From positions 45,091 through 109,090 of the IMG/VR virus record IMGVR_UViG_3300022697_000186: DNA of 64,000 bases, one strand, 5' to 3'. This DNA is from a virus. Lineage: Duplodnaviria > Heunggongvirae > Uroviricota > Caudoviricetes. The translations under genes and the position numbers were made by a program. Below the pieces are notes generated by a model. It saw only the letters and a program-made list of their open reading frames with translations, was not told the origin of the DNA and made no database searches. Of this stretch, positions 34,822 to 63,048 are shown piece by piece; the stretch's first letter is position 1, and every line of letters starts with the position of its first letter.

Positions 34822-34839
34822 TTAGGACAAACTGTAAAT
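34822..34839 (+). promoter_or_regulatory. late promoter motif TTAGGACAAACTGTAAAT
   Basis: one of 8 copies of consensus TTAGGACAAAyTrTAAAT upstream of + strand late genes. Confidence 0.55.
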
Positions 34840-34874
34840 TTTAAAATTAATTATATTGAAATATAAATAATAAG

Positions 34875-34892
34875 TTAGGACAAATTATTAAA
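34875..34892 (+). promoter_or_regulatory. late promoter motif variant TTAGGACAAATTATTAAA
   Basis: motif copy. Confidence 0.4.
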
Positions 34893-34965
34893 ATATTATA
34901 TGATATTACTGTACCATTATTAATAAGGTAGAGTAGTGCTTACATTTTAAATAGGAGAAAGTTTT

Positions 34966-35277
34966 ATGTTTGATGAGTTTGATGAGTTTCATGACATGTT
35001 AGATGATAGTATTAAAAATTTTGATGAAGATAAAGAATACGATATTCAGTTAAAAATTACAGGTGGTGAAATAGGTGCATTAATTAGAATGCTTCAATTT
35101 GTATTTGAAGAATCACTTGATGGTAATGCAGATTTAAGTGAAGAGGGTTTATCATTAACTCGTAAACTTAGTAATACTATTTATACAATATTTAAAATAC
35201 CTGAAAAAATACAGAATAAAGTTAGAAGTAGAATTGAAGATTCTATTGAAAAATTAAAAAACGCTAATTTAAATTAA
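34966..35277 (+). CDS. acidic hypothetical protein
   Basis: ORF track; late promoter upstream. Confidence 0.5.
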   Translation: MFDEFDEFHDMLDDSIKNFDEDKEYDIQLKITGGEIGALIRMLQFVFEESLDGNADLSEEGLSLTRKLSNTIYTIFKIPEKIQNKVRSRIEDSIEKLKNANLN

Positions 35278-35293
35278 AGTGGAGATTTAAAAT

Positions 35294-35878
35294 ATGTCAT
35301 CTGTTATACTCAATATTGCTGCGGGAAAATTTCGTCCTTTAAAAAATAAACCTAATTCATTTTTAATAAATCTTGATACAATGTATTATAAGACTACACC
35401 TGAAAGTGAGATTGAACAAGCATATGAGTCTTGGTCTAAATCTAAAGATATATCATTTAGTAGTAATGAAGATGCATTCACATTTATGGAACGTACAAAA
35501 ATAAACTTTTCTGATATATGTTTATATCGGTTTTTAGAACATGTAGATAAAGATAGAGTTTTATATTTTATTTATCTTTTAAGTACATGTATGGATATTG
35601 GAGGTATGGTTGATGTAATAGTACCAAATTATAAAATATTAGCTCAGAGAATATTAGATGAGGATGTTTGTGATTTTAATTTTCCAGCAGATGATATAAC
35701 AACAACATTTGAATTATTAAATGAACCTAATTGTCCTCATGCTTCTATATGGACAGCAGATCGTGCATCACATTTTTTTAGTTTAGAAGGTAGATTTGAA
35801 GTTTCTAATATAGAAGAAAATTTCGAATTCGATGGTAGAAATTTATACTTAAGATTTCAAGCAAAAAGAATAAAATAA
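35294..35878 (+). CDS. hypothetical protein
   Basis: ORF track. Confidence 0.55.
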   Translation: MSSVILNIAAGKFRPLKNKPNSFLINLDTMYYKTTPESEIEQAYESWSKSKDISFSSNEDAFTFMERTKINFSDICLYRFLEHVDKDRVLYFIYLLSTCMDIGGMVDVIVPNYKILAQRILDEDVCDFNFPADDITTTFELLNEPNCPHASIWTADRASHFFSLEGRFEVSNIEENFEFDGRNLYLRFQAKRIK

Positions 35879-35903
35879 AAATTTAAATTAATAGTATAAT
35901 TTT

Positions 35904-35938
35904 AAGGGAGTTGAACAATATCTGAATTCAACTCCCTT
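35904..35938. terminator. perfect 12-bp stem hairpin AAGGGAGTTGAA/TTCAACTCCCTT, bidirectional
   Basis: direct reading between convergent genes. Confidence 0.7.
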
Positions 35939-35951
35939 AAAAATTTATGTT

Positions 35952-36705: not shown

Positions 36706-36723
36706 TTAGGACAAACTATAAAT
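36706..36723 (+). promoter_or_regulatory. late promoter motif TTAGGACAAACTATAAAT
   Basis: 24 nt upstream of ATG 36748. Confidence 0.6.
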
Positions 36724-36747: not shown

Positions 36748-37029
36748 ATGAAAATTAATTTAGTTAAACGTGAAAATATAAAAAAAGACATAGATGAAGG
36801 TTTATTATATGATTCTATTAAGAGATATATTAAAGAATCAAAATACCCGAAGAACTTAGTTTTTAAAAAACAAAAACTATTAATAAAAGAACTTGATAGT
36901 AGATTAGATAAGACTATTAGATTAGTAAATCTTGGTGAAAAACAAATTAAAACAGCAGAACAAGAAAATGGAATACTGTGGCAGAAATGCAATTCCATTT
37001 TACGCGAATTAAGAGATAATATGGATTAA
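36748..37029 (+). CDS. hypothetical lysine-rich protein
   Basis: ORF track; chosen over antisense ORF. Confidence 0.5.
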   Translation: MKINLVKRENIKKDIDEGLLYDSIKRYIKESKYPKNLVFKKQKLLIKELDSRLDKTIRLVNLGEKQIKTAEQENGILWQKCNSILRELRDNMD

Positions 37030-37086: not shown

Positions 37087-37105
37087 TTAAGGACAAATTT
37101 TAAAT
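37087..37105 (+). promoter_or_regulatory. late promoter motif variant TTAAGGACAAATTTTAAAT
   Basis: motif copy. Confidence 0.4.
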
Positions 37106-37123: not shown

Positions 37124-37519
37124 ATGGAAATTTCTAGATTAAGTAATAGTTTTAAAGAGCAAAGTTCTACTCTTCCTCTTGATTCCTTGTTGTCATATTT
37201 ATCTCAGATTGTTTTGAGTGAAACTGACAAGGAGATAAAAATAAAACAACTGGAATTAGATGAAAAGAAGATACAATTCAATAATTTGAAGGAAAATCTT
37301 AGAGTAGTTAAAAATCGCTTAGTTAATGTATCTACTGAAGAAAATAGATTGAATGCACTATATAAAGTTCTTCGTATAATCAGAACCTTAAAAAAAGAAG
37401 GTTTACTTGTAGGGAATAATAGAGCAAAGATAGATAAAATTTTAGGTAATATACATGACCAAGAGGAAAAAACCTTGATAACTTTATTAGACAGATTAAC
37501 ATTGTATTTACCAGATTGA
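37124..37519 (+). CDS. coiled-coil hypothetical protein
   Basis: ORF track. Confidence 0.5.
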   Translation: MEISRLSNSFKEQSSTLPLDSLLSYLSQIVLSETDKEIKIKQLELDEKKIQFNNLKENLRVVKNRLVNVSTEENRLNALYKVLRIIRTLKKEGLLVGNNRAKIDKILGNIHDQEEKTLITLLDRLTLYLPD

Positions 37520-37555: not shown

Positions 37556-39007
37556 ATGAAGCATCTTTTACAAGAAGCCTATAAGGTATCTAAAAGAATG
37601 ACTGGAATTACAGTCAATACACCTGATGGCTTCAAACAAACTGTATCTGATAAAAATGCATGGGGTATTTATACTAATGCATTATCAGAAGGATTGGATA
37701 GAGACGCAACAGAACAATTTCAAGTGATGTCAGAAAACACTAGAATTGCTCTGATGGAGAACTCTATGTTCCAATTAAACCCATATGAATCTTTAACAAT
37801 GCCTGTTCTTAGAGTATTTTACCCTAAGCTTATTGCTAAAGAATTAGTTAATGTTATGCCAATTGATAAACCAGACGTAGTTAAAGGATTTATCCATGCT
37901 AAGTTTAAGAAAAATGGTGACGCTGGATTCGGAAGAAACTTCCCAGATACTACTGGAAATATTTCGCAAGGTCCTGATGTTGGTGTTACAGTTACTAAAA
38001 CAGCGTTAGTTGGTACTACTGATATTCTTGCCGAGGCAGGATTAACATCCACTAACTCTCATATAGAGAAAAACTTTAAAATCGTAGGACTTACTGATAG
38101 TACTGCTAATACAGCAGTTGTATCACTTGGTATTGATGTTGATGGTAATTTCTCACATACTGTTACTATTGCTACACAAACAGACGTGATCTCTGGTCAT
38201 GTTGACTTTGAAGCAGGAACTATTACTTTCTCTTCCGCTAATAGTATTGTTACTAGTATTGATTATGAAGCATATGCTTCACTAGAAGAAAATGCTATTA
38301 ATCCTGCTGTAAGATTCGAAGTTGAAAAGATTAGATTGACAGCAATTGATAGACGTATTTCTGCAGAATGGAGCATGAACATAGAGCAAGATGTTAAAGC
38401 ATTGTTCGATGTTGCTCTACAATCAGAATTAGTTAATATCATTGGTGAACAGATTGCATTAGATATTGATAATGAAATTATCAATACTTTAATTTCTTCT
38501 AATGCTGCATCAAATCCAATTTCTCATACTGATACATTCGACCTTAATCCTCCTACTACATTCACTTGGGGTAGAAAGAATTGGTACGAAAATATCATAC
38601 CTACACTAAATGAGCTATCCGCTCAGGTTTATAATAGTTCATTAATGGGAGCTGCTAATACTATTGCTGCTAACCCACTTGATGCAGCTGTTCTTGAATC
38701 TCTTAACGGATTTGAATATGCTGGTAATAGTGTTGATGGTGGAGATGTAGGATATAGAAGTGCAACAGTAGCTGGTGGAAAATGGAAAATACTTGTATCT
38801 TCTGTTGTACCACAAGGTAAAATGATTGTTAAATACCGCTCTAATGATTTGGCGAGAGCGGCATTCTGTTATGCCCCTTATGTACCAGCACTTTTGAGTC
38901 CATATCCATTAGGGAATAACCCCTCAATGACAATACTTAGCAGATACGCAAGCAAAATGATTAGACCTGAAGCATTGGCAGTTCTTAATATTACTGACAC
39001 TGCATAA
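37556..39007 (+). CDS. major capsid protein, T4 gp23-like
   Basis: C-terminal similarity to gp23 (GKxxVxxxxxxxxYAPYVxxLxP motif: CYAPYVPALLSPYPL vs T4 YYAPYVALTPL); highly expressed context (promoter + terminator). Confidence 0.65.
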   Translation: MKHLLQEAYKVSKRMTGITVNTPDGFKQTVSDKNAWGIYTNALSEGLDRDATEQFQVMSENTRIALMENSMFQLNPYESLTMPVLRVFYPKLIAKELVNVMPIDKPDVVKGFIHAKFKKNGDAGFGRNFPDTTGNISQGPDVGVTVTKTALVGTTDILAEAGLTSTNSHIEKNFKIVGLTDSTANTAVVSLGIDVDGNFSHTVTIATQTDVISGHVDFEAGTITFSSANSIVTSIDYEAYASLEENAINPAVRFEVEKIRLTAIDRRISAEWSMNIEQDVKALFDVALQSELVNIIGEQIALDIDNEIINTLISSNAASNPISHTDTFDLNPPTTFTWGRKNWYENIIPTLNELSAQVYNSSLMGAANTIAANPLDAAVLESLNGFEYAGNSVDGGDVGYRSATVAGGKWKILVSSVVPQGKMIVKYRSNDLARAAFCYAPYVPALLSPYPLGNNPSMTILSRYASKMIRPEALAVLNITDTA

Positions 39008-39039: not shown

Positions 39040-39073
39040 GGCTCCTCAGCTTATTTATTTAAGTTGGGGAGCC
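39040..39073. terminator. weak hairpin GGCTCC/GGAGCC followed by T-run, between convergent genes
   Basis: direct reading. Confidence 0.3.
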
Positions 39074-39078
39074 ACTTT

Positions 39079-40755
39079 TTACTCTCGAATTAATTCATAT
39101 ACATAATTCCCACAATCCCAAATACGGTCAAATTTATTTAATTGCATATTCTGCCATTCAGTAAGATTTGGATCAAACACTTCTAATAAGTTTTCTAACT
39201 TATGTTTCTGATACTTCATTCTTGATTCTCTACTTATATAATTTGTATAGAAATAACCTGGACTAGTTAATTTCTTATATTTAAATCCACAAGATTCATA
39301 TCCCTTACCTTCACCATATCTTGCATCAGCATAAGTAATAATTGAACTATTTGGGTTTAATTTCTTAAAATACTTTAATAATTTTGAAAGTCCACCAGTA
39401 ATAGAATAATTTAACTTATTACAGAATCTAAGTATCTCATAGTCATAATTCTTATTGAATCTTGATTTACCCATCGTAATCATAGATACTAATTTCTCTT
39501 CATAATAAAGACCTATATGAATTCCGTTTATAGGTCCTTGTAAATGATTATCAAAAAGAAACTGTTTAGCAATTTTATTAGAAACTTCTTTAATAATACA
39601 TTTTCTAGCGAATATCTTATTAGGAGATTTACCCATTTTGTTTAGTAATATACTTTTAACTATATCTCTTTTGTTTAACCACTCATCTTCAAATATCTGA
39701 ATCAAATGAATACCTTTTTGTTTAGCTAATAAAGTTTTATTCTGATGGTATTTAGAATCTTTATTATTACTAAGTTCACTATGCCAATATAATCCGTTGT
39801 ACTCAATTCCTAATTTTAACTCTTCAATATAGACATCTATTTCTTTCCCATTAAGTATTGTTCTATCTGATTTAGCATTTGGGTAGTATTGTCTTATGAA
39901 AGATAGGATTTCTAATTCACCTTTAGAACTGATTAATGGTGGATTACATGATGGACATCTAGGTAAAGTTCCGTTATCTATATTACTTTTAAATTCATTT
40001 CTACAGTTCTTACATATCCATTCATATTCTGTATTTTTAACACCAGTATAATCTTCTAATGTAAAATTTGGAATATATAAATCTTTCAATCTTTCAGAAT
40101 TAAAAAGTTTATTGAAAAACTTTTGTAAAATGGAACTTCTAATATTCTCTTTATTTTCTTTTGTTTGTGTAAAATATTCCACCCCAAATTTCTTAATACA
40201 TGTATCTCTATGTTTTTCCATATTATTATAATTTTCGTTATTATATCTTTTTAATTTGGTTTTCTTTCCTTTTTCTGGATTACAATACCCTATATTTCCA
40301 TATTTCTCTAATTTCGTTTTCTTCATTTTTTCTGGATTTACATATTCTGAATTTCCATATTTTTCTTTTTTTGATTTCTTTATTTTACTGGTATTATTAT
40401 ATTTGGAATCTCCATATCTTTCGATTTTTGTTTTATTTAATTTATCCCTAACTTCTTTTACATTTTGTGAACATTTAGGACTAGGACAGTACTTGCTGTA
40501 ACCTCTAGGTATTGTAACAAATTTAGTAGGAGGATTACCAAAAGGACAATTGATATTTTGACAAACTCCTTCTTTATCTATTTTTAGATAAATATCATAA
40601 TATTCTTTAGCAGAATTAGGATGTCCATTTTTTCCATAATTTGATCTTAGATGATTAGCAAATCCAGTAGTATTAAAAGTATCCTTTTTATGATTACAAG
40701 TTGACACTAAACATTTATGATATTTTGTTTTTTTCTTGAGTTTTTTTCTTTCCAT
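39079..40755 (-). CDS. free-standing homing endonuclease-like protein: N-terminal Zn/Cys region, K/E-rich (E)KYG(N/V)xxY repeats, C-terminal Vsr/DUF559-type PD-(D/E)XK nuclease domain
   Basis: IEYNGLYWHSE...IHLIQIFEDEW motif; paralog of 40778 and 63154 genes. Confidence 0.6.
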   Translation of the reverse strand: MERKKLKKKTKYHKCLVSTCNHKKDTFNTTGFANHLRSNYGKNGHPNSAKEYYDIYLKIDKEGVCQNINCPFGNPPTKFVTIPRGYSKYCPSPKCSQNVKEVRDKLNKTKIERYGDSKYNNTSKIKKSKKEKYGNSEYVNPEKMKKTKLEKYGNIGYCNPEKGKKTKLKRYNNENYNNMEKHRDTCIKKFGVEYFTQTKENKENIRSSILQKFFNKLFNSERLKDLYIPNFTLEDYTGVKNTEYEWICKNCRNEFKSNIDNGTLPRCPSCNPPLISSKGELEILSFIRQYYPNAKSDRTILNGKEIDVYIEELKLGIEYNGLYWHSELSNNKDSKYHQNKTLLAKQKGIHLIQIFEDEWLNKRDIVKSILLNKMGKSPNKIFARKCIIKEVSNKIAKQFLFDNHLQGPINGIHIGLYYEEKLVSMITMGKSRFNKNYDYEILRFCNKLNYSITGGLSKLLKYFKKLNPNSSIITYADARYGEGKGYESCGFKYKKLTSPGYFYTNYISRESRMKYQKHKLENLLEVFDPNLTEWQNMQLNKFDRIWDCGNYVYELIRE

Positions 40756-40777
40756 TGGTTTTATATTTTTAAATTCC

Positions 40778-42676
40778 TTAATTTAAAATTAATTCATATA
40801 CATAATTACCACAGTTCCAAATTCTGTCGAAACCGTTTAGCTGCATATTTTGCCATTCAGTAAAAGTTGGGTCAAACGTTTCTAATAAGTTTTTCAACTT
40901 ATGTTTCTGGTATTTCATTCTAGATTCCCTACCATTATTTTTTAAATAAAAATAACCTGGACTAGTTAATTCCTTGTATTTAAACCCACATTTTTCATAC
41001 CCTTTACCTTCACCAATTCTTGCGTCAGCGTAAGTGATAATAGATTCTGGATTATACTCTTTTCTAAAATACTTTATTAACTTGGATAGACCACCAGTAA
41101 CTGATGTATTTAATTTGTTACAAAAACGAAGTATTTCGTAATCAAATGACTTGTTAAATCTAGATTTACCCATCGAAATCATCGAAATTAATTGATTTTC
41201 AAAATAGATTCCAATATGTGTACATTGTATACCACCTTGTAAATGATTGTCAAATAAGAATTGTTTAGCTTCTTTGTTTTCTACAGATTTAATTATACAC
41301 TTTCTAGCGAATACTTTATTGGGAGATTTACCCATTTTGTTTAATAGAATTGATTTCACTATATCTTGTTTATTCAACCATTCGTCTTCAAATATCTGAA
41401 TCAAGTGAATACCTTTGGATTTTGCAAGTAAAGTTTTCTCTTGATGATATTTAGAATCTTTATTACCACCTATTTCACTGTGCCAGTATAATCCGTTATA
41501 TTCAATACCCAGTTTAAGTTCTTCGATATAAATATCTATTTCTTTTCCATTAAGTATAGTTCTATCTGATTTAGCATTTGGGTAATACTGTTTTATAAAT
41601 TCTAATACTTCTTGTTCAGCTTGAGAAGTACCAGAATTTGTAAGTCTTGGGTAACAATAATTACATTTTGGAATATGACCATCATCAATATTATCTTCAA
41701 AAATTTGTTTACATTTTTTACATTCCCAGGAATATTTTTTATTTTTTACACCATCATATTCTTCCAAATTAAAATTAGGAATACATCTTTCTTTCAATCT
41801 ATCTGAATTGATTAATGATTTAAAAAATTTGTTCTGTAAAGATCTTCTAACTTTTTCTTTTATTTCTTTAGATTCCATAGGATGTGAACATTGATATTTT
41901 TTCTTCATTGATTCACATACTTTTTTACTAAGTGCTTTAGAAGCAAATGTATATCCACCATATCTGTTAATTACTGTCTTTTTTCTTAATTCTAATATAT
42001 TCTTAGTTTTTTCTATACCATATTTTTCTATTAATGGTCCTTTAAATTTATCTTTAGTTTCTTTTCTTTTCATAATATTATTAACACCATATATTTTCAT
42101 CATGGTATCTTTAGTTTTATTTGCTAATTCTTCACTAGCAAATCCTGTACCACCATACTTTTCTTTATTTGTATTTTTAATTTTTTCATTTACACCTGGT
42201 ATATGTCTTACATTTGTTATGTTTTTTCCATGTTTTTCTTGAAGGGTATTCTGGCGTTTCAATTCTGCATTAGATGAAGTACGACCGTCCGGATTTTTTT
42301 TACCTAAATTTATACACGTATTACATATAAGTTTTGAAGATGGTGATGTAATAGGAACTTCTATTTCATCTTTAGGACAATCATTATCATTTTTATAATA
42401 ACAAAAAACTATTTTAGTTTTATTTAATTTGATATTTGATTTGAGAGTATTGATTCCATTTCGACCTCTTTCTTTTCTCAATCTAAATTCAACTAAAGTC
42501 ATTGTTGGATGATTTGGATAATTTTCCAAAATCTCTTCTAATGTAGTTCCATGATTTTTTGCATGTTTTGGATGTAAAAATTTCATAGGTTTATTATTTG
42601 TATCTGAAGATACATTACAAATTGGACATGTGATTTTTTCTATATCATCAACGATATATTTTTTAGTTTTAAACAT
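40778..42676 (-). CDS. homing endonuclease-like protein, paralog (Vsr/DUF559-type nuclease domain + KYG repeats)
   Basis: C-terminal ~280 aa nearly collinear with 39079 gene. Confidence 0.6.
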   Translation of the reverse strand: MFKTKKYIVDDIEKITCPICNVSSDTNNKPMKFLHPKHAKNHGTTLEEILENYPNHPTMTLVEFRLRKERGRNGINTLKSNIKLNKTKIVFCYYKNDNDCPKDEIEVPITSPSSKLICNTCINLGKKNPDGRTSSNAELKRQNTLQEKHGKNITNVRHIPGVNEKIKNTNKEKYGGTGFASEELANKTKDTMMKIYGVNNIMKRKETKDKFKGPLIEKYGIEKTKNILELRKKTVINRYGGYTFASKALSKKVCESMKKKYQCSHPMESKEIKEKVRRSLQNKFFKSLINSDRLKERCIPNFNLEEYDGVKNKKYSWECKKCKQIFEDNIDDGHIPKCNYCYPRLTNSGTSQAEQEVLEFIKQYYPNAKSDRTILNGKEIDIYIEELKLGIEYNGLYWHSEIGGNKDSKYHQEKTLLAKSKGIHLIQIFEDEWLNKQDIVKSILLNKMGKSPNKVFARKCIIKSVENKEAKQFLFDNHLQGGIQCTHIGIYFENQLISMISMGKSRFNKSFDYEILRFCNKLNTSVTGGLSKLIKYFRKEYNPESIITYADARIGEGKGYEKCGFKYKELTSPGYFYLKNNGRESRMKYQKHKLKNLLETFDPTFTEWQNMQLNGFDRIWNCGNYVYELILN

Positions 42677-42779
42677 TCTATTTTACCTCAAAAATTTAAA
42701 TAATATACTTAGTCTATATTATTTAATATATATAACATAATTATTAGTTTTATATTTGTCCAGAATAAAAATAATTAAA

Positions 42780-42797
42780 TCAGGACAAATATAAAAC
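42780..42797 (+). promoter_or_regulatory. late promoter motif variant TCAGGACAAATATAAAAC
   Basis: motif copy 25 nt upstream of ATG 42822. Confidence 0.4.
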
Positions 42798-43944: not shown

Positions 43945-43963
43945 TTTAGGACAAACTGTAAAC
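43945..43963 (+). promoter_or_regulatory. late promoter motif TTTAGGACAAACTGTAAAC
   Basis: motif copy. Confidence 0.5.
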
Positions 43964-45586: not shown

Positions 45587-45627
45587 TGGAGTTAGGTTAT
45601 ATTAATATAGCCTAACTCCATTTTTTT
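45587..45627 (+). terminator. 16-bp stem hairpin + T7 run (rho-independent)
   Basis: TGGAGTTAGGTTATAT/ATATAGCCTAACTCCA then TTTTTTT. Confidence 0.8.
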
Positions 45628-45657: not shown

Positions 45658-45677
45658 TTAGGACAAACTATAAATTA
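45658..45677 (+). promoter_or_regulatory. late promoter motif TTTAGGACAAACTATAAATT
   Basis: followed by AGGAG SD and ATG 45690. Confidence 0.6.
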
Positions 45678-45689
45678 GGAGTTATTTAA

Positions 45690-46322: not shown

Positions 46323-46353
46323 AGATAATTTTATTTAAAATAAGGAGACATAG

Positions 46354-48519: not shown

Positions 48520-48552
48520 TCTTAATTGCGTATAGTAGTTAGGATAATTAAT

Positions 48553-48579: not shown

Positions 48580-48600
48580 TTATTTAATGAGGGTATTTAA

Positions 48601-52826: not shown

Positions 52827-52839
52827 TAAGGAGTACAAT

Positions 52840-54515: not shown

Positions 54516-54525
54516 GGAGAATATA

Positions 54526-54882: not shown

Positions 54883-55371
54883 ATGTCAGTAATAACAACT
54901 AAATCTTTTACTGCAGGTGGAGTAACTATTACAAAAGGATCAGGATCTCCTACATCAATACCTAAGAAACATGGAGATATGTATATTGATGTAACAAATG
55001 ATTATGTATATGTAGCAACAGATATATTAAATTCAAGTAATTGGATTATTGTTTCTAATGCAGGTGCAGGCGGTGTTTATAATCAAGCAGAGAAGAATGC
55101 ACTTGAATTAGAAATGGGATTTAAAAATGCTAATGGTTCAAATTATAAAGAACTTGGATATGATACAACTAGTGGAGATTTAAGTTCTATAAATATATAC
55201 ACAACTAGTGCTAAAACTACGCAGTTATTTAGTAAAACATTAGGATATAATTCTAATGGTAATTTAATACAAGTAAGTACAACAAGATCATCTGATAATA
55301 AAAATTTAACAAAAAATATAAGTTATAATATATATGGTGATTTATTTTCAATAGAGGCAATTTTAATATGA
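54883..55371 (+). CDS. hypothetical structural protein
   Basis: ORF track. Confidence 0.5.
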   Translation: MSVITTKSFTAGGVTITKGSGSPTSIPKKHGDMYIDVTNDYVYVATDILNSSNWIIVSNAGAGGVYNQAEKNALELEMGFKNANGSNYKELGYDTTSGDLSSINIYTTSAKTTQLFSKTLGYNSNGNLIQVSTTRSSDNKNLTKNISYNIYGDLFSIEAILI

Positions 55372-56369
55372 CATTAGAAAAATTTTCGTATAAATATTTA
55401 GAAAGTATGCAACTACCATGGATTATATGTAAACCATGGAAGTGGGTTGTAACCAGATTATTTAAAGGTATAGATATATTAAATCTTCTTTATAAAAATC
55501 CACATTATAAACAGCTAGCAGAACTTAAAGGTAAACCTACATTAAATACTTTAAAAAATAAATATATCAAAGAGTTAAAATTTTTAAAAAATGGTTTATA
55601 TAATTATAAATATGAAAATAATATTGATGATGTTGGAGATCAAGGATTACATAATGGTATATATGCGGCATATAGATTAAATATTTTTAATGATAATAAA
55701 TTTTTTTTAAATTATATAAAACAAATTCTTATTAGAAATGATGATGGTGATCTTGTATTATTACGTGGTATAAATATTCCTAAAAATAAAAATATTGATG
55801 ATTACGAATTTGGTAATTTACTTAGAGATGATTGTAGTGGAGATCAACTAGGTGGATTTGTTTTAGCTTGTTCAGAATACAGAAAACAAAATGGTAAATT
55901 ACCTGACATAGTACATGAATTCTTTAATCAATTTTTTAAAGAAATTGAATGTAAGTTTTTAAATATACCTTTTATAAAATTTAAATCATTAAATTGTAAA
56001 TTATATCAACTAGATGGTACCGTTAGTAAACATGGTAATTTAAATCCTAATATATTTATGTCTGCATTTCCAATTGGTATTGTATTAGCTGCTGCAGTTG
56101 TATCAGGTAATTGGAAAGCTTTTAATTATTTATATTATAAATGTGGTTATAAATATATGTTACCTCATTTAAATCTTTATGTATTAGGTGGAGAAATTGA
56201 TACAATTAAACCTGTAGTGTTTGGTAAAAAAATTACTGGACAAAGAAGTTGGTTTAATTATAATTTAGCTGCTGTAGGTCTTTCAATATTAAATACATGG
56301 GATAAACATTCAAAACGAAAATTTTTGTATCAACTTGCTCTGGACAAACTATTAGTAGACACAAGTTGA
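55368..56369 (+). CDS. hypothetical Asn/Lys/Tyr-rich protein terminated by TGA that is followed in-frame by an 89-codon start-less open frame
   Basis: ORF track; see finding. Confidence 0.5.
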   Translation: MTLEKFSYKYLESMQLPWIICKPWKWVVTRLFKGIDILNLLYKNPHYKQLAELKGKPTLNTLKNKYIKELKFLKNGLYNYKYENNIDDVGDQGLHNGIYAAYRLNIFNDNKFFLNYIKQILIRNDDGDLVLLRGINIPKNKNIDDYEFGNLLRDDCSGDQLGGFVLACSEYRKQNGKLPDIVHEFFNQFFKEIECKFLNIPFIKFKSLNCKLYQLDGTVSKHGNLNPNIFMSAFPIGIVLAAAVVSGNWKAFNYLYYKCGYKYMLPHLNLYVLGGEIDTIKPVVFGKKITGQRSWFNYNLAAVGLSILNTWDKHSKRKFLYQLALDKLLVDTS

Positions 56370-56639
56370 AACCCATGGTGTACACTGTTAGCAAAAGAAG
56401 CTGATTTTGATGTAAAACATGAAAGTATTGTTGAAAGTTTAGAGTATTTTAGAACGTTTAGAGTCACTTTACTAGACTCTACTAAAACTGTATACTATCC
56501 GCTGGGTGGACAGAATTTAGATTGGTCATGGCAAAGATGCCCATTTAAACTAGATAAATCACCAGAACATATACATTATGGGAAATTAGATTTTTTATAT
56601 GTATTAGGTTTAGCTAAAAAATTGAAAGTGCTAATGTAA
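56370..56639 (+). other. in-frame downstream open frame (89 codons, no start codon) ending TAATG on next gene; candidate readthrough extension or disrupted gene
   Basis: hand translation of frame continuing from TGA 56367-56369. Confidence 0.4.
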
Positions 56640-57058
56640 TGTCAGATTCAAATTGGATAATATCACATTTTGCTGATTCTGGTGTACCAAAAACGGGTCT
56701 CTCTCCTATTATAACAATTATTGATTTAGCTACAGATAGTGTAGTAGTTAATGGAGCATCAATGAGTGAAGTTGCTAATGGTACATATAAATATAACTTT
56801 ATAACATTAGATCCCAAGAATGATTATTCAATAAGTGTGGATGGAGGAAATTTATTATCAGATGTAGATAGATATCAAGCTTCTACAAATGAAAGTTATA
56901 ACGGTGATATTAGAAAACATCTCACCAACAAGCAAACAATAACTAAAATTGATGATAATAATTCAACACATATTGTATTTGCAGATGATGGTATAAGTGC
57001 AGATTCATCTTATGCTTATTCTAAATCTGGAAATACTGAAACTAGGAACCCTATATGA
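56639..57058 (+). CDS. hypothetical structural protein
   Basis: ORF track. Confidence 0.5.
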   Translation: MSDSNWIISHFADSGVPKTGLSPIITIIDLATDSVVVNGASMSEVANGTYKYNFITLDPKNDYSISVDGGNLLSDVDRYQASTNESYNGDIRKHLTNKQTITKIDDNNSTHIVFADDGISADSSYAYSKSGNTETRNPI

Positions 57059-57786
57059 TGAAATATGTAAGTGAAGAATATATAGAAGAAAGTTTATTAG
57101 AAGATTTTGGTGGAATAGTTTTTGTTGTTGTATCCTATATATTATTTATGTTTACTATACTAATAATAGGTAAAATAGGAGTAGCTAGAGGTAACTCTTT
57201 ATTTAAAGAATTAAAAGATGATTTAATAAAAATAGTTAAACCTAAACTTAAATCTTTAACTTCTAAATTAATACCTATTGGTCGTAGTCTTTATAAGATA
57301 ATATCTAAAAATAAAGATCTAATTATATATTATGAATATATTAATAAAATTGTTGGTAATAAGAAAAAAGTACATAGGAGTGGAAAATTAAAGGATTTAA
57401 TTGATATTAAAATATATGATAAATCTATATTGGGGTTTATGAAAAACCGTTTATGGAGAGGTGGATGGTTTGGAACAAAAAGAAGTTTGTTTAAAAGAGG
57501 CAAATTTGCTTCAAATTTTAGAATAGATTTTTTTAATGATGGTAATAATTCTCCTTATTTTGTAGATTCACTAAATAGTAAAGATGATTTAGATTATAAT
57601 TATATGAGTAATGTATTTTCAGATATAAATATTGATTTTGATTCTAATAGAGGACAACAATTAATAGAATCATTAATTAAAATTAATCCAATTGTTGTTT
57701 CTGCTAACAAAAAAATCTCAAATTACTTTAAATATTTTGTTGAAGAAGTAACTAATGAAATGAAAATATTAATAGAAGAAAAATAA
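57055..57786 (+). CDS. membrane-anchored hypothetical protein
   Basis: ORF track; TM helix near N-terminus. Confidence 0.5.
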   Translation: MMKYVSEEYIEESLLEDFGGIVFVVVSYILFMFTILIIGKIGVARGNSLFKELKDDLIKIVKPKLKSLTSKLIPIGRSLYKIISKNKDLIIYYEYINKIVGNKKKVHRSGKLKDLIDIKIYDKSILGFMKNRLWRGGWFGTKRSLFKRGKFASNFRIDFFNDGNNSPYFVDSLNSKDDLDYNYMSNVFSDINIDFDSNRGQQLIESLIKINPIVVSANKKISNYFKYFVEEVTNEMKILIEEK

Positions 57787-58053
57787 ATGGCTATAGAAAA
57801 TACAGCAATATTTAGTAATGGAATTTTTCCTAGTTTTCCGTTACCTGTTACAAAGATAGTTGGCGGTGGACCAGGTGCTAGTAGTATTATACGTAGGAAA
57901 GAAAAAGGTGTATGTGTAATGCCTAAGTTTAAATTTTTTAAATTAGATAATGAAGAAGTACTTGAAGCAACAGCTAATATCAAGAATGTTACATTAGAAA
58001 ATGGAGATAACATAAATGTTACTATTGGACGCATCAAAACCGAAGACTCTTAG
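57787..58053 (+). CDS. hypothetical small protein
   Basis: ORF track. Confidence 0.45.
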   Translation: MAIENTAIFSNGIFPSFPLPVTKIVGGGPGASSIIRRKEKGVCVMPKFKFFKLDNEEVLEATANIKNVTLENGDNINVTIGRIKTEDS

Positions 58054-58846
58054 TTTAGACTTTGAAGTTGAAGGTTTAAAAAAGGAAGACCTAAAAATAC
58101 TATTGCGTGTTGAAATCGCAGGAGTAGAATATGGTTTTCCAGGTGAGTTTACTAAAAGTGGTAAAGTTAAAATATCTATACCTCCAATTTCAGAAGTATG
58201 TTCTGGTTCATATAACATGGATGATAAATATCCAGCAAGAATTGATGTCACTGGTAGTGGGTTTTATTTAAATCCTTGGTCTGATGAGGTTTCTATTAAA
58301 TCTTCACCTAAAATAGAAATGACAATTAAAGAAGATACTGGGACAGATGATGGTTTACCTAAAGCTAAAATTAGTTCAATTAAAGAAAGTGATTTAATTG
58401 AGGAAGAGCCTGAAGTTGAAGAAATTGTAAAAGAAGAAAAAATAATTAAACAAAAAATCAAAGAAGAAGTAATTGAAGAAGATACAGATGATGATCTACT
58501 TTCTGATGATTCATTAAAACTAATTGAAGAAGTAGAAGGTCTAATTGAAAAACGTCCAATAAAAAGGAAAGCTAGACCAATAAGATCTGAAAATTCAATA
58601 ACTTCAAAATATTTTGATGAATTAAAAATATATGCACTTGATAATAAATCTATATTAGAACATAACAAAATAGCTTTAAAATCTGCTCATAGAAGAATAC
58701 ATCAATTATATATTACATCTACTGAAAGAGGTAATATAGGATTCTCTAAGGCACTTAAAAAGGCTCATAAACTGATAGTACAAGAAATGACTAATAAAGG
58801 AGTTAAACATAAGAAAGTCTTAATAGAAAACATTTCTAAAATGTAA
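58016..58846 (+). CDS. protein with highly acidic Glu/Asp-rich central region (prohead core/scaffold-like candidate)
   Basis: ORF track; SD GGAGA 8 nt upstream. Confidence 0.5.
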   Translation: MLLLDASKPKTLSLDFEVEGLKKEDLKILLRVEIAGVEYGFPGEFTKSGKVKISIPPISEVCSGSYNMDDKYPARIDVTGSGFYLNPWSDEVSIKSSPKIEMTIKEDTGTDDGLPKAKISSIKESDLIEEEPEVEEIVKEEKIIKQKIKEEVIEEDTDDDLLSDDSLKLIEEVEGLIEKRPIKRKARPIRSENSITSKYFDELKIYALDNKSILEHNKIALKSAHRRIHQLYITSTERGNIGFSKALKKAHKLIVQEMTNKGVKHKKVLIENISKM

Positions 58847-58932: not shown

Positions 58933-59838
58933 ATGGCTTATAAATATTTCCCTCAGCTAGATTTTTATTTTTCTACCTACTGGCAATTCAATAGAGAAAT
59001 AACTATTCATGATAATATTTTAGATCCTGAATCAATAGCAAATATTGATATTAAACGAGGTTCATTTGTAGAAATGTTATTTTCTAATACATATGAATTA
59101 AGTTATTATCATACATTATTTGAAACTGTTGGTATAGGTACATTAACTAAAAGTATTAGTGAAAGATTACATACAATTAGTTCAACTATAACATGTTATG
59201 TATCTGATTCTACGAGCGGTATAGATGTATTTTCTTTAGCTCCTGAGGACAATATAATGTTAGATCTTTTATTAGAATACAGACAAACTATTACACCTGA
59301 TTTAAATACAGTAACATATTCTTCTTTGACAACTAATTTATCTAAGTTAATATATAAATATTTAGATTTAGTGGTTAACTTAAATTTTGATACTTTAAAT
59401 AATAAAGTATTAGATAGTAGTTCAACAAGTATTTTAGAAAATTTATATGAAGTGTATGTTACAAATGAAACACATAGAATTATTAGAAATTGGTCTTTCA
59501 TGGTTGATGCAGGTATAGTAGAACTTAGACCAGTAAGAGATAAATTTGAAGTAACTACTGCTATAGAAACAGCAGAGAAAGTAACAACATCAGGCGATCC
59601 ATATGACTTCGATGTTTATATGTATAAAAATGGAGACCCACTAATTCCAATTACAGATTATACAATAACACAAGACTCAACAGGTACAATTGATGTTAGT
59701 TGGTCTACAACTCCTACAACAATAGTCGTTGGTGATTGGGTAGTGTTAGATTATTATGTGCGAGTAATACAATCTGATACAGGTACAACTCCAATGGATG
59801 GTCAAAATGAAATCACATCAAATTTGAGTTGGATTTAA
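58933..59838 (+). CDS. hypothetical structural protein
   Basis: ORF track. Confidence 0.5.
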   Translation: MAYKYFPQLDFYFSTYWQFNREITIHDNILDPESIANIDIKRGSFVEMLFSNTYELSYYHTLFETVGIGTLTKSISERLHTISSTITCYVSDSTSGIDVFSLAPEDNIMLDLLLEYRQTITPDLNTVTYSSLTTNLSKLIYKYLDLVVNLNFDTLNNKVLDSSSTSILENLYEVYVTNETHRIIRNWSFMVDAGIVELRPVRDKFEVTTAIETAEKVTTSGDPYDFDVYMYKNGDPLIPITDYTITQDSTGTIDVSWSTTPTTIVVGDWVVLDYYVRVIQSDTGTTPMDGQNEITSNLSWI

Positions 59839-59841
59839 TTC

Positions 59842-61347
59842 ATGTCTGAAAATGAAACATTTAAAGTCTTTCAAAAAATATATGATTGGTTAAAATCAGA
59901 AGGTACTATAAGTACTGACCTTGATTATAAATTTGCACAAACTGCATTATCTGAAAAACAAAAAGTTACAGCATTCTTTGAAGCTATAATAGATCAACCT
60001 GCTTTTCTAACTGAAGATCATAAAAGAATAAGAGAATTTTTAATTAACTGGTATGCCACACATAGATCCCAAGTTACTAAAACTAGGCAGGTTACTGATG
60101 CATTTAACTTAGATACTGAATCACTTAATGAAGTTATTAAGGGAATGGGATTTCCTTTTCCAGATAGAATTGGTACGAACGAAACAAAGGCTCAATTTTT
60201 ATTAGATTTAGTTTCGTTATACCAGAAAAAAGGAACACCAGAAGTATTAGTTAAATCATTACAAACATATTTTGGTTTAACAGATGTTGTTCTATCCGAA
60301 TGGTGGGTACATAAACAGACTGATGATTTAATTGTAGCTAAATCTAGACCAGTATATCCTACTACTAAAAAAGGTCAAAGAGAATTATATATAACTTCTG
60401 ATATAGATATTTTTACATCTACAGATCCATTATGGAAAATGTCAGGAGCAGAAATATTAGAATTATATCAAATTAATAAAATATCATTACCATCAATTAC
60501 ACCATATGTTTCTTTACAAGCTGGTGTAAATGTATCTAGTTTAAATGCTTTCTTCTCTGTAATAACAAAAAGAATGAATGAAGATTATGATTACTGGGTA
60601 GCTAATGGGACTTTAGTAAAGGATATAACCCTTACAAAATTTGAAGGACAATTTTCATTTTTAGAAGTGTCTTTAGCAATACATTATCTATTTGGTAATG
60701 ACAATTTTTCTACAGATAAAAATTTCTTACAATATACAGGACAATATGCTCCAATAGATCCTGATGGTACTGGTAATAATAATATTGATGTAAATTTAAT
60801 TATAGATGAATGGAATAATTTAACTACAAGACAAACGACTAAATTAGAAAGAGAAACAAATTTAGCTTCAAGAAATTCATCCTTTACAAATACTACTACT
60901 AATTCATCAATCTTCATTAATATATTAAAGAATCCTGATATATATTTGGATTTAATTAATCCTATATTTAAAGCAGAAATAGATGAAGTTACAGGTAATC
61001 TTGATCCAGAAAAAGTACCCACAGTATTAGAGAGTATTATTTTAGATTATGAATTTTATTTAAAGGAATCAATGCCTTTACTTAACAATGCTTTGAGTTT
61101 TATGATGGTTGGTTCACCTACATGGGACGGTCTAGATGATGTTATGGAAGTATTAAAACCATATAGAGTTAGACTTAAAGAATTTTTAATATCATTTGTT
61201 TGGAACGATCCTCTAGCAGATAGTCAACTGGAAGCTGATGAATTTTCAATGGCTCAAACTGTTTTATTTGTAGATAAACATCCAACTCATCCATTTGATA
61301 CTGGTATTGTATATGATAGTTTTAGTGTAGAAATAATAAATTTATAA
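59842..61347 (+). CDS. hypothetical structural protein (501 aa)
   Basis: ORF track. Confidence 0.55.
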   Translation: MSENETFKVFQKIYDWLKSEGTISTDLDYKFAQTALSEKQKVTAFFEAIIDQPAFLTEDHKRIREFLINWYATHRSQVTKTRQVTDAFNLDTESLNEVIKGMGFPFPDRIGTNETKAQFLLDLVSLYQKKGTPEVLVKSLQTYFGLTDVVLSEWWVHKQTDDLIVAKSRPVYPTTKKGQRELYITSDIDIFTSTDPLWKMSGAEILELYQINKISLPSITPYVSLQAGVNVSSLNAFFSVITKRMNEDYDYWVANGTLVKDITLTKFEGQFSFLEVSLAIHYLFGNDNFSTDKNFLQYTGQYAPIDPDGTGNNNIDVNLIIDEWNNLTTRQTTKLERETNLASRNSSFTNTTTNSSIFINILKNPDIYLDLINPIFKAEIDEVTGNLDPEKVPTVLESIILDYEFYLKESMPLLNNALSFMMVGSPTWDGLDDVMEVLKPYRVRLKEFLISFVWNDPLADSQLEADEFSMAQTVLFVDKHPTHPFDTGIVYDSFSVEIINL

Positions 61348-61384
61348 AAAATTAATTTAAAAATAGTTCAAGGAGATTATTTGA

Positions 61385-62179
61385 ATGAAAAAAGTACAGA
61401 AGATTAATGTAGGTATTACAGATAATCAAAAGAAAAATATTAAAGATAAAGTTTTATCATCTACACCAATTAATGATAAAACCAAATTCCAACCTAAAGG
61501 TCGTGTAAGAGTTTATGAGAAAAAAGTAGATTCAGATGGAAAAAAGAAATTATTCTTGATTGAGGATACTAGTAATTTAATTGTATATAGAGGAAGACAT
61601 TGGTTACTACAAAGAGCTTTCAATCAAAATTTAACTACAACTACTGGTGATAGATCTGGGTGGTCTGACAAATGGATAAATTGGTTTGGGGTTGGTATTG
61701 GAGGTTCTACAGCTAACCCATTGGTACCTGCATCTCCTATATTAACAGATTGTGAATTAAATACTCATGGTACAATGGATACTGGTACTAGCAGAGTTGT
61801 TATTCCTGGTGGAAATGAATTTCATAGTTTTGATACTAATTATCCTAGATTTATATTTGATACAGATATAACTAATTCTGAATTATGTACTGGTTGCACT
61901 GCTCTTGATGCAGAGAATGGCACAGGTCCATTTAATTGTGATGGTTTTTTAATTGGATTAACAAAGATTACATTACTTTCTGCTGAAGCTAATGGTGGAA
62001 CAATTCCTGGTAATTCTCAAGATATTAATGAAGCAGGATTATTTGTTAGTGAAAGTGATTTGACAACATATTCTAGTTTTACAAGTACATCAATGCAAAC
62101 ATTTGCAAGAGTAACATTCTCTACTATACGTAAAGATGATTCTAGAGAACTAATTTTTTCATGGTATATTTATTTTTAA
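61385..62179 (+). CDS. hypothetical structural protein
   Basis: ORF track. Confidence 0.5.
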   Translation: MKKVQKINVGITDNQKKNIKDKVLSSTPINDKTKFQPKGRVRVYEKKVDSDGKKKLFLIEDTSNLIVYRGRHWLLQRAFNQNLTTTTGDRSGWSDKWINWFGVGIGGSTANPLVPASPILTDCELNTHGTMDTGTSRVVIPGGNEFHSFDTNYPRFIFDTDITNSELCTGCTALDAENGTGPFNCDGFLIGLTKITLLSAEANGGTIPGNSQDINEAGLFVSESDLTTYSSFTSTSMQTFARVTFSTIRKDDSRELIFSWYIYF

Positions 62180-62207
62180 ATTCAGCAAAAAAAAATAAAT
62201 TAGGATA

Positions 62208-62233
62208 GTAAGGGGGATTAATTTCCCCCTTAC
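62208..62233. terminator. 10-bp G/C-rich stem hairpin GTAAGGGGGA/TCCCCCTTAC, bidirectional
   Basis: direct reading between convergent genes. Confidence 0.7.
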
Positions 62234-62245
62234 TTCCACGTATAT

Positions 62246-62941
62246 TTATATTACATTACCAGAACCAAATTTAAATTGTTTTTCATTTCTATATAAACTT
62301 TTCATTAACCAACTATTATTCTTATTAGATATTGCACCCATTATATTTTTTTTGTTTAGTAAAGTTTCATGCTGTTTATTTGCATTAACTATATAAATGT
62401 TTTCATCTGATAATGTTGTAAGTAATTCTTCTATACTATATTTTATTTTAGGAACCAATGCTAATTTTAAATGACTAATAGCAATATTTCTATTATTGAA
62501 GTATCCTTCTTCTAAAAGTTCATTTACAATATGTTCTAATTCTATCATAAATATTTCTTGTAGATTATTAGATTCTAATATATTGTCTATATCTAGTGAT
62601 AAATTATTATCACTTAAATTAAAGAGTATATGATATAATTCATCTTCTCTTTGATTTTTTAATAAATTTAGTAATTCTTTAGATTGATATTTAGGTTCAT
62701 CTATTAATAATTCAATTCCCTCTTCAGATACTATACTAAAAGATGGTACTAATTTTATATTGTATCTTTTTGCATAATCTATTAAAGGAAAATGCTGATA
62801 AATAAACATATTATCATGATTAGATATACTAATCTTGCAGGTCTTATTCTCCTTTATTTGTTCATGATGTAGGTTAAATATTAGAGCTTTAGCTTTGTTA
62901 AAATCATTAATATGAATATGATAGTCTATATGTTCTGTCAT
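62246..62941 (-). CDS. possible PHP-domain metal-dependent phosphoesterase
   Basis: N-terminal DYHIHIN resembles PHP motif I (DxHxH); otherwise weak. Confidence 0.3.
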   Translation of the reverse strand: MTEHIDYHIHINDFNKAKALIFNLHHEQIKENKTCKISISNHDNMFIYQHFPLIDYAKRYNIKLVPSFSIVSEEGIELLIDEPKYQSKELLNLLKNQREDELYHILFNLSDNNLSLDIDNILESNNLQEIFMIELEHIVNELLEEGYFNNRNIAISHLKLALVPKIKYSIEELLTTLSDENIYIVNANKQHETLLNKKNIMGAISNKNNSWLMKSLYRNEKQFKFGSGNVI

Positions 62942-63031
62942 ATGTAGTTTACCTCTAAAAAGAATTTTATGTTAATACGTTAAGTTATTGTTTTTAAATG
63001 TTTTATCTCGATTTTTTTAAATCTCCTCTAC

Positions 63032-63048
63032 TAGGACAAATTATAAAT
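63032..63048 (+). promoter_or_regulatory. late promoter motif TAGGACAAATTATAAATA
   Basis: motif copy. Confidence 0.5.

What the first reader, a model, noticed from the sequence alone, without database searches (positions are those of the whole stretch)
34822..63048. Extended late promoter consensus TTAGGACAAAyTrTAAAT repeated 8 times
Eight + strand late or structural transcription units start with the same 18-20 bp element. Full copies are at 36706, 43945 and 45658. Variants are at 34822, 34875, 37087, 42780 and 63032.

The 3' part is the T4-type late -10 element TATAAAT(A). The conserved 5' extension TTAGGACAAAC has no counterpart in T4 late promoters. It suggests an additional sequence-specific factor, such as a phage-encoded late activator or an extended-sigma contact. 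A truncated copy, TTTAGGACATTG, occurs at 22549 in the GC-rich ORF-free island.
Basis: seen in the sequence. Interest (0 to 1): 0.55.

Follow-up and report, generated by a model that had tools for sequence, protein, structure and literature searches.

The report
Clade-specific late promoter of jumbo phage

Summary
The motif is real. Nine oriented copies, eight on the + strand and one divergent on the − strand, all sit between genes and upstream of capsid, baseplate, tail-fibre or homing-endonuclease genes. The window belongs to an uncultivated, 25% GC jumbo phage contig of 236 kb.

In relatives (capsid protein 64-73% identical), GGACAAA is the most over-represented word upstream of genes (17.7-fold). 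It also occupies the same position before the capsid operon.

The invariant part is aGGACAAA plus two A's 12-13 nt further on. The TATAAAT half drifts, and TATAAATA alone is not enriched between genes. Ribosome-binding sites start 14-17 nt after the first G, and one start codon sits at offset 14. Transcription must therefore start inside the motif, which contradicts T4 geometry. No −35-like element exists.

More distant relatives (capsid about 52% identical) use a one-base variant, GAACAAA, before terminase, protease and capsid genes. They also encode two unsplit multisubunit RNA polymerases. The layout resembles the AR9 late promoter, AACA-N6-TA.

Whether the window's own phage encodes such a polymerase could not be checked. 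The polymerase assignment is inference. Verdict: a new variant of a known kind, of moderate interest.

The parts
34822..34839 (+). Late promoter copy 1, TTAGGACAAACTGTAAAT. It is the distal member of a tandem pair before ORF 34966-35277 and the methyltransferase-like ORF 35294-35878.
   Evidence: Exact match. PWM score 29.1. Intergenic, between divergent gene blocks.
34875..34892 (+). Late promoter copy 2, TTAGGACAAATTATTAAA. It is the proximal member of the tandem pair, ending 73 nt before ATG 34966.
   Evidence: PWM score 22.2.
36706..36723 (+). Late promoter copy 3, TTAGGACAAACTATAAAT, before ORF 36748-37029.
   Evidence: Exact match. PWM score 30.3. Context.
37088..37105 (+). Late promoter copy 4, TAAGGACAAATTTTAAAT, before the 131-aa ORF 37124-37519 and the major capsid gene 37556-39007.
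   Evidence: The same position is occupied in relatives L080, L081, L082, L177 and L083. The capsid protein matches PHROG 20655 and PF07068.
42747..42764 (-). With copy 5 it forms a perfect 15-bp inverted repeat.
   Evidence: PWM score 16.6. Sequence. The endonuclease genes match PHROG 3339/559.
42780..42797 (+). Late promoter copy 5, TCAGGACAAATATAAAAC (one base shorter), before the PAAR-like gene 42822-43127.
   Evidence: PWM score 22.7. PAAR match to PHROG 281.
43946..43963 (+). Late promoter copy 6, TTAGGACAAACTGTAAAC, before the 508-aa conserved gene 44026-45552.
   Evidence: The orthologue in L083 is preceded by GGACAAACTGTAAAT.
45658..45675 (+). Late promoter copy 7, TTAGGACAAACTATAAAT, before ORF 45690-46322 and the tail-fibre-like block. 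The SD AGGAG lies at 45677-45681.
   Evidence: Best PWM score, 32.2. The SD and ATG spacing constrain the start site. It lies 38 nt after a terminator.
63031..63048 (+). Late promoter copy 8, CTAGGACAAATTATAAAT, before an ORF that probably starts with TTG near 63094 and runs on towards the window end.
   Evidence: The same arrangement follows the 62246-62941 homologue in L007 and L075.
30602..30619 (-). Possible weak copy of the sister-clade form, GTAGAACAAACTATAATT. It lies inside the 3' end of ORF 30566-30871 and upstream of 30273-30554 and the dCMP deaminase gene. Its function is uncertain.
   Evidence: 3-mismatch hit. Context. The GAACAAA form is the promoter-like word of the sister clades.
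39040..39073 (+). Intrinsic-terminator-like hairpin (14-bp stem) that ends the capsid transcription unit.
45587..45620 (+). Intrinsic-terminator-like hairpin (15-bp stem followed by TTTTTTT) 38 nt upstream of promoter copy 7. It marks a boundary between transcription units.

Best explanation
The element is a compact, single-block late promoter with core a-GGACAAA-y-T-n-T/A-A-A-A, about 15 bp long.

Inferred layout: transcription starts at the conserved A's, 12-13 nt after the first G. GGACAAA then occupies roughly −12 to −6, where a −10-type recognition element sits. The A/T-rich 'TAAA' is the melting and initiation region rather than a T4 −10 box. There is no −35 partner.

Inferred reader: phage-specified transcription machinery. 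The most probable candidate is a phage-encoded multisubunit RNA polymerase of the kind carried by the nearest relatives whose polymerase genes could be seen. That enzyme would be made earlier in infection and would play the role of the non-virion polymerase of AR9 or phiKZ.

Shown: the motif, its orientation, its position before late genes and after terminators, its conservation, its clade-specific one-base variant, the absence of a −35 element, and the upper bound on the start site.

Inferred: the exact start site, the identity of the polymerase, and the presence of that polymerase in this phage.
For: - Enrichment and placement in the window: (P about 7e-5).
- Terminator followed by motif.
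- GGACAAA is the top over-represented 7-mer upstream of genes in 11 loci of the subclade: 32 of 145 upstream regions, 17.7-fold, above the SD words. Logo positions 12 and 13 are A at 0.94 and 0.97.
- The motif keeps its position before the pre-capsid ORF in relatives with GC from 0.30 to 0.45.
- The SD starts 14-17 nt after the first G in the window copy at 45661 and in L082, L075 and L081. In L177 and L180 the ATG is at offset 14.
- No position from −45 to −9 carries a consistent signal: information content is at most 0.25 bit, apart from one 0.43-bit position at −16 in the 26-site subclade set that is absent from the 131 sister sites. There is no −35 element.
- In 171 sister-clade loci GAACAAA is the top word: 125 of 1008 upstream regions, 11.3-fold. 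It has the same A12/A13 and an SD right behind it.
- There it precedes terminase, a 415-aa gene, the gp21-like protease and the capsid operon.
- It is absent from the 10 kb before, and the roughly 9 kb of, the β'-β operon.
- A 268.8-kb contig carries a capsid protein (52% identical to the window's), β' and the methyltransferase together. Other contigs link β' with the methyltransferase, or the capsid protein with the methyltransferase.
- The window shares the methyltransferase (up to 61% identity) and an SPFH-like protein (45-53% identity) with these phages.
- Sister genomes carry two paralogous unsplit β' genes.
- The AR9 late promoter is AACA-(6N)-TA/G(+1), read by its non-virion polymerase (PMC5312081 and PMC7598289). 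The same geometry puts +1 on the conserved A12 here.
Against: - No polymerase or sigma gene lies in the 64-kb window.
- The rest of the 236-kb contig could not be retrieved.
- The six IMG/VR contigs of the GGACAAA subclade never appeared in three β'-directed scans. Those scans hit row or best-80 limits, and at least one of those contigs is a truncated copy.
- No transcript 5' ends are available, so the start site is only bounded.
- The head module is T4-like (gp23-type capsid protein, gp21-type protease). That keeps a gp55-type factor on host polymerase plausible.
- The match to the AR9 consensus is imperfect: GACA rather than AACA in this subclade, and A/T-A rather than T-A/G at −1/+1.
Confidence: 0.55

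Rival explanations
1. Late promoter read by the host RNA polymerase carrying a phage-encoded minimal late sigma (gp55-like, with or without a gp33 or clamp co-activator). Its −10 specificity would have shifted from TATAAATA to GGACAAA.
For: - The head module is T4-like: gp23-family capsid protein PF07068 and Peptidase_S77 prohead protease.
- gp55-type promoters are also single-block elements without a −35, which fits.
- A GGACAAA at about −12 to −6 with a start about 6 nt later fits the SD constraints as well as the main explanation does.
Against: - No gp55-, gp33- or sigma-like protein turned up among about 60 window ORFs scanned against PHROGs, Pfam and NCBIfam.
- None appears in the Pfam tables of six relative loci of about 21 kb each.
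- Relatives that use the one-base variant of the motif encode two RNA polymerases of their own.
Confidence: 0.22
2. Not a promoter but a signal at the RNA or operator level. It could be a 5'-leader element such as a processing site, a translational enhancer or operator, or the binding site of a late activator or repressor next to an unrecognised promoter.
For: - In sister clades the motif sits at a very regular, short distance from the SD and ATG, with a mode of 24-32 nt.
- It is strictly strand-specific with respect to the downstream gene.
Against: - In the window the distance to the ATG varies from 15 to more than 140 nt, and two copies stand in tandem.
- The motif is the only conserved element between a strong terminator and the next SD.
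- No other conserved upstream element exists that could serve as the promoter.
- No Rfam family matches.
- In L177 the start codon directly abuts the motif, leaving no room for a leader element.
Confidence: 0.1
3. Promoter of a T7/SP6-type single-subunit RNA polymerase. The window copies align in register with the SP6 promoter: ATTTAGG-5 nt-CTATA, then +1.
For: In my own alignment against the SP6 consensus recalled from memory, 12 of 15 positions match in the three best window copies. This would also place the start inside the motif.
Against: - The CTATA and TTA parts are not conserved in relatives.
- No single-subunit polymerase motifs occur in the six-frame translations of the window or the first relative loci.
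- Relatives encode multisubunit enzymes.
Confidence: 0.03
4. T4-type late promoter as proposed by the first reader: TATAAAT(A) is the −10 element, the start lies 6-8 nt downstream, and the 5' extension is contacted by an additional factor.
For: Four of the nine window copies contain TATAAAT.
Against: - The SD or ATG would be cut off at 45658 and in several relatives.
- The TATAAAT part is the variable half of the motif.
- TATAAATA is not enriched between genes.
Confidence: 0.04

Closest known systems
AR9 (PBS1-like) late promoters, AACA-(6N)-TA/G(+1), read by the non-virion multisubunit RNAP with gp226
   Same: - Single short block with no −35 element.
- An xACA tetranucleotide about 11 to 8 nt before an A start in an A/T-rich stretch.
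- Placed before late genes of a jumbo phage.
- The sister-clade form GAACAAA contains AACA, and AR9 geometry puts +1 on the conserved A12.
- The window's capsid protein has AR9, PBS1 and phiR1-37 among its best cultured hits.
   Different: - The block here is longer and much better conserved: 7 invariant bases plus AA, easily found by word counting. AR9-type late promoters could not be predicted bioinformatically (PMC7598289).
- This subclade has GACA rather than AACA, and A rather than T at −1.
- The relatives' polymerases have unsplit β and β' about 30% identical to any cultured phage enzyme.
- No gp226 or gp68 homologue and no dU-DNA were shown.
T4 late promoters (TATAAATA at −13 to −6; gp55, gp33, gp45)
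   Same: - Single-block, A/T-rich late promoter without a −35 element.
- T4-like head genes in the clade.
- Some window copies contain TATAAAT.
   Different: - The conserved part is GGACAAA, not TATAAATA.
- The start site must lie within the TAAA stretch, not 6 nt beyond it.
- No gp55 or gp33 was found in the sequence available.
phiKZ non-virion RNAP late promoters (TATG, with G as +1) and the A/T-rich early promoters of virion RNAPs
   Same: Phage-polymerase promoters confined to the region from about −12 to +1. A two-polymerase strategy is seen in the relatives.
   Different: The consensus is different. The phiKZ late motif is only 4 nt long. Virion-RNAP early motifs precede early genes, whereas this motif precedes structural genes (PMC7598289).
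T7/SP6-type single-subunit RNAP promoters
   Same: A contiguous block of about 18 bp that includes the start site. The window copies resemble the SP6 consensus.
   Different: The resemblance is not conserved in relatives, and no single-subunit polymerase was found.

Membership tests
T4-type late promoter | TATAAATA is the conserved element | tested here: not met
   Only four of the nine window copies contain TATAAAT. In relatives this half varies (CTAAAAA, TTTAAAA, CTGTAAA) while GGACAAA is invariant. TATAAATA is not enriched between genes.
T4-type late promoter | Transcription starts about 6 nt downstream of the box | tested here: not met
   The SD begins 2 nt after the motif at 45658. In relatives the SD starts at offsets 14-17, and the ATG is at offset 14 in L177. 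This is an indirect test: no 5' ends were mapped.
T4-type late promoter | The phage encodes gp55 (late sigma) and gp33 | tested here: inconclusive
   None was found among the window ORFs scanned. Only 27% of the genome is available.
AR9-type non-virion RNAP late promoter | AACA at −11 to −8, then 6 nt, then T(−1) A/G(+1) | tested here: inconclusive
   The sister-clade form GAACAAA-N5-AA contains AACA, and the conserved A12 falls at the predicted +1. The window's subclade has GACA. Position −1 is A (0.75-0.81) rather than T. The start site was not measured.
AR9-type non-virion RNAP late promoter | Recognised by a phage multisubunit RNAP with a gp226/gp68-type specificity subunit | not tested
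   Relatives encode β' and β. No gp226 or gp68 homologue was looked for systematically.
AR9-type non-virion RNAP late promoter | Template-strand recognition that requires deoxyuridine in the DNA | not testable with these tools
   Needs biochemistry or base-composition analysis of virion DNA.
σ70-type bipartite promoter | −35 and −10 hexamers 16-18 bp apart | tested here: not met
   No conserved −35 element: information content from −45 to −9 is at most 0.25 bit, apart from one 0.43-bit position at −16 in the 26-site subclade set that is absent from the 131 sister sites. σ70-like sites are no more frequent than in shuffles.
T7/SP6-type single-subunit RNAP promoter | Conserved −17 to +6 block with TATA at −4 to −1, plus a single-subunit RNAP gene | tested here: not met
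   CTATA is not conserved across relatives. No motif A or motif C signatures occur in the window or the first relative loci.

The most novel reading that the evidence does not exclude
The motif would be the late promoter of a previously uncharacterised kind of phage transcription machine: one of two unsplit β/β' RNA polymerases carried by a very large uncultivated jumbo-phage lineage. Like the AR9 enzyme, it would read a short template-strand element at about −12 to −6. The clade-specific GG/GA switch would reflect co-evolution with its specificity determinant.

The G's might be chemically modified. GTP cyclohydrolase FolE2 and a radical-SAM gene flank the polymerase operon in a sister-clade contig. 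Promoter recognition could then double as discrimination of self from host, as deoxyuridine does for AR9.
Probability: 0.12. Interest if true: 0.8.

Novelty: new variant of a known kind. Interest (0 to 1): 0.5.

Why it matters
Reviews of jumbo-phage transcription state that the late promoters of polymerase-encoding jumbo phages cannot be predicted from sequence (PMC7598289). Here a late signal is strong enough to be the top over-represented word upstream of genes. It comes in two clade-specific one-base variants across hundreds of metagenomic contigs.

That has three practical uses:
- It gives a ready handle for annotating late operons in an abundant uncultivated lineage.
- It gives a defined template for in vitro work on the unsplit phage polymerases of that lineage.
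- It offers a natural specificity switch, GG versus GA, for mapping the promoter-recognition determinant.

Tried and rejected
- Near-identity search of 16 kb against cultured phages found nothing.
- Retrieval of the rest of the contig failed. The capsid protein is not in the encoding index. The contig is not in IMG/VR. It is not in the metagenome collection either: the 18-mer scan returned 41 loci, none of them relatives.
- Three scans aimed at β' in the six IMG/VR contigs of the GGACAAA subclade did not find them. All three hit row or best-80 limits, so the result is negative but not conclusive.
- The genome-contig scan with the β' profile was swamped by bacterial rpoC genes.
- Searching 50%-identity representatives of β' and looking one of them up led to a much more distant group without the motif.
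- Homologues of the methyltransferase 35294-35878 were searched in the hope of finding polymerase genes next to it in close relatives. No relative above 61% identity exists.
- The SP6-like reading of the motif was rejected because CTATA and TTA are not conserved in relatives.
- L020, a motif hit with a β'-like gene, proved to be an unrelated phage with the match inside a coding region.
- The moraphage lineage from the literature was rejected because it lacks polymerase genes.
- No second, early-type motif was detectable in 43 non-late upstream regions of the window.
- Literature searches for the motif returned nothing.
- A PDB sequence search and an NCBIfam scan of candidate small proteins gave no significant match to a transcription factor.

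Full report
**Observation.** The 18-mer TTAGGACAAAyTrTAAAT, allowing up to 3 mismatches, matches 10 times against 1.87 expected. None of 100 shuffles reached 10. A weight matrix built from the eight + strand copies separates them cleanly (scores 22-32) from everything else. It also reveals a ninth copy on the − strand at 42764→42747, TCTGGACAAATATAAAAC, scoring 16.6.

The exact copies are at 34822, 36706 and 45658, and 43946 ends in TAAAC.

Nine of the 13 GGACAAA words in the window lie between genes and point at the next gene. With an intergenic fraction of 0.18, the binomial P is about 7e-5.

The 'truncated copy' at 22549 behaves like a chance 8-mer. The five TTAGGACA matches outside the true copies compare with 2.9 expected. 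This one lies antisense in the leader of a − strand gene, and the region has GC 0.27, so it is not GC-rich.

**Anatomy in the window.** The genes behind the copies are:
- a 103-aa ORF plus a SAM-methyltransferase-like ORF, behind two tandem copies 53 nt apart;
- a 93-aa ORF;
- the 131-aa ORF that precedes the gp23-family major capsid gene;
- a PAAR-like spike protein;
- a conserved 508-aa protein;
- the 210-aa ORF that heads a block of large tail-fibre-like genes;
- an ORF at the window end;
- on the other strand, two large homing-endonuclease genes.

Strong terminator-like hairpins end the capsid unit at 39040-39073. Another stands at 45587-45620, 38 nt before the copy at 45658. None of the strong copies lies in the 34.8 kb of small-ORF and nucleotide-metabolism genes to the left. 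No tRNA gene or Rfam family is present.

**What the phage is.** The window is 25% GC. It has no near relative among 50,697 deposited phage records. Its capsid protein is recorded from one JGI contig of 236,091 bp.

The best cultured capsid matches are only 22-25% identical: phiR1-37, AR9/PBS1 and the staphylococcal jumbo phages. Metagenomes hold a continuum of relatives on contigs of 150-335 kb. Relatives also carry a gp21-type prohead protease.

**Conservation.** In relatives whose capsid protein is 64-73% identical, with GC from 0.28 to 0.45, the same element stands before the orthologous pre-capsid ORF and before other structural genes.

An unbiased count over 11 loci (225 kb) makes GGACAAA the most over-represented 7-mer upstream of genes. 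It occurs in 32 of 145 upstream regions, 17.7-fold over expectation and ahead of the Shine-Dalgarno words.

The logo is a(0.84)-GGACAAA-y-T(0.91)-n-T/A-A(0.81)-A(0.94)-A(0.97). The 5' TT and the 'TATAAAT' look of the window copies are not conserved. From −45 to −9, information content is at most 0.25 bit, apart from one 0.43-bit position at −16 in the 26-site subclade set that the 131 sister sites do not share. There is therefore no −35 partner. TATAAATA on its own is not enriched between genes in the window.

**Where transcription must start.** At 45658 the SD AGGAG begins 16 nt after the first G, and the ATG follows 15 nt after the motif ends. In relatives the SD starts at offsets 14-17 in L082, L075 and L081. 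In L177 and L180 the start codon of the pre-capsid ORF is itself at offset 14.

A start 6-8 nt beyond TAAAT, the T4 geometry, would remove the ribosome site. The 5' end must therefore lie inside the motif. The natural candidates are the two nearly invariant A's at offsets 12-13. That places GGACAAA at about −12 to −6. This is an inference from sequence. No 5' ends were available.

**A one-base variant in the wider lineage.**
- A scan of IMG/VR for ADFDGD codons picked up L284. It encodes an unsplit β' (896 aa, with NADFDGDQMAVY) and an unsplit β (1018 aa). Homologues of two window proteins follow: the methyltransferase (51% identical) and an SPFH-like protein (45% identical).
- This β' family is very large in metagenomes and about 30% identical to bacterial or cultured-phage enzymes.
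- One 268.8-kb contig carries the β', the methyltransferase and a capsid protein 52% identical to the window's.
- In the late region of that contig the upstream signal reads TAGAACAAAtaTTAAAt.
- Over 171 sister-clade loci GAACAAA is the top upstream 7-mer: 125 of 1008 regions, 11.3-fold. It has the same conserved A12/A13, a T-rich 5' flank, and the SD immediately behind it.
- It precedes the terminase large subunit, a 415-aa gene, the prohead protease and the capsid operon.
- It is absent from the 10 kb before, and the roughly 9 kb of, the β'-β-…-methyltransferase block. It then appears in 25 copies just beyond that block across 46 loci.
- Three sister contigs carry a second, paralogous unsplit β' of about 1000 aa, 29% identical to the first. 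These phages therefore have two polymerases.

**Most likely mechanism.** The element is a compact late promoter whose recognition core, G[G/A]ACAAA, sits where a −10 element sits, and whose A-run is the initiation site. The most probable reader is a phage multisubunit polymerase made earlier in infection, as in AR9 and phiKZ.

The AR9 late consensus is AACA-(6N)-TA/G(+1), read on the template strand by the non-virion polymerase with gp226 (PMC5312081 and PMC7598289). The sister-clade form contains AACA, and the same spacing puts +1 on the conserved A12.

The weak link is that no polymerase gene could be shown for the window's own phage or for its GGACAAA subclade. The window has none. The rest of the contig is in none of the searchable collections.

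**Rivals.**
- A gp55-like late factor on host polymerase with altered specificity fits the geometry and the T4-like head genes. No such gene was seen.
- An RNA-level or operator signal is disfavoured by four observations. The distance to the ATG is variable. Two copies stand in tandem. A terminator directly precedes a copy. No other conserved upstream element exists.
- The SP6-like appearance of the window copies disappears in relatives.

**Verdict.** It is a new consensus of a known kind of element. It belongs to an uncultivated jumbo-phage lineage whose relatives have unusual unsplit polymerases. Interest is moderate, at 0.5.

Noticed in passing
window 8780-9080 (within the 772-nt gap 8417-9188): A dense array of at least eight direct copies of AATACTATATGAA, plus a related word TAAATACTATGT (five copies), spaced 11-34 nt apart in an ORF-free stretch. 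It looks like an iteron array, possibly a replication origin.
   Followed up: no
window 17998-18333, next to ORF 18399-19433 (−): At least six copies of TGGGTTTCTATT in register with a 36-nt period (17998, 18034, 18070, 18214, 18286, 18322). They lie in the 680-nt gap beside a transposase-like gene (PHROG 4285, E = 9e-28).
   Followed up: no
window 10436-10620: Tandem repeats with a 42-bp period (CCATCACCGTTACCATTACCATTA) inside overlapping ORFs on both strands, in the locally GC-richer stretch 10-12 kb.
   Followed up: no
window 39079-42676 (−) and 42747-42797: Two large homing-endonuclease-like genes (558 and 632 aa; PHROG 3339/559) are wedged between the capsid gene and the baseplate genes. 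Relatives carry a homologue just after the capsid gene. The upstream endonuclease gene has its own copy of the late promoter, which forms a perfect 15-bp inverted repeat with the + strand copy.
   Followed up: partly
window 45690-58846: A block of about 13 kb with higher GC (0.32-0.38 against 0.25) holds large unannotated ORFs of 721, 430 and 977 aa. It separates genes (44026-45552 and 58933-62179) whose homologues lie within the same 9-21-kb locus in relatives (L083, L007, L036) that contain no homologue of this block. It looks like an acquired or hypervariable host-recognition module.
   Followed up: partly
L284/L319, L582, L611, L201 (sister-clade IMG/VR contigs): Relatives encode two paralogous, unsplit β' subunits (about 900 and about 1000 aa, 29% identical to each other), and an unsplit β follows the 900-aa type. 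Described jumbo-phage polymerases have split subunits. No cultured phage has a β' more than about 31% identical.
   Followed up: partly
L319 504-9557 and L284 5725-6567: In one sister-clade contig, a ubiquitin-like conjugation set (E2-like, JAB, two ThiF and a ThiS-like protein) and a radical-SAM gene lie upstream of the β' gene. A FolE2-type GTP cyclohydrolase I lies downstream of β. This hints at 7-deazaguanine DNA modification.
   Followed up: no
window 35294-35878 (+): A SAM-methyltransferase-like protein lies within 10 kb of the β' gene in 52 of 80 sister loci. In the window it sits behind the tandem late promoters with no polymerase nearby. No relative above 61% identity exists in the 5.8-billion-protein collection.
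   Followed up: partly
L177 and L180, about 9567: The start codon of the pre-capsid ORF directly abuts the motif (GGACAAATTAACAAATG). This implies a leaderless or nearly leaderless mRNA in that relative.
   Followed up: partly
window 1-34800: No second conserved upstream motif could be found for the 43 non-late upstream regions. Only Shine-Dalgarno words are enriched, and σ70-like sites are no more frequent than in shuffles. How the early genes are transcribed is unexplained.
   Followed up: partly
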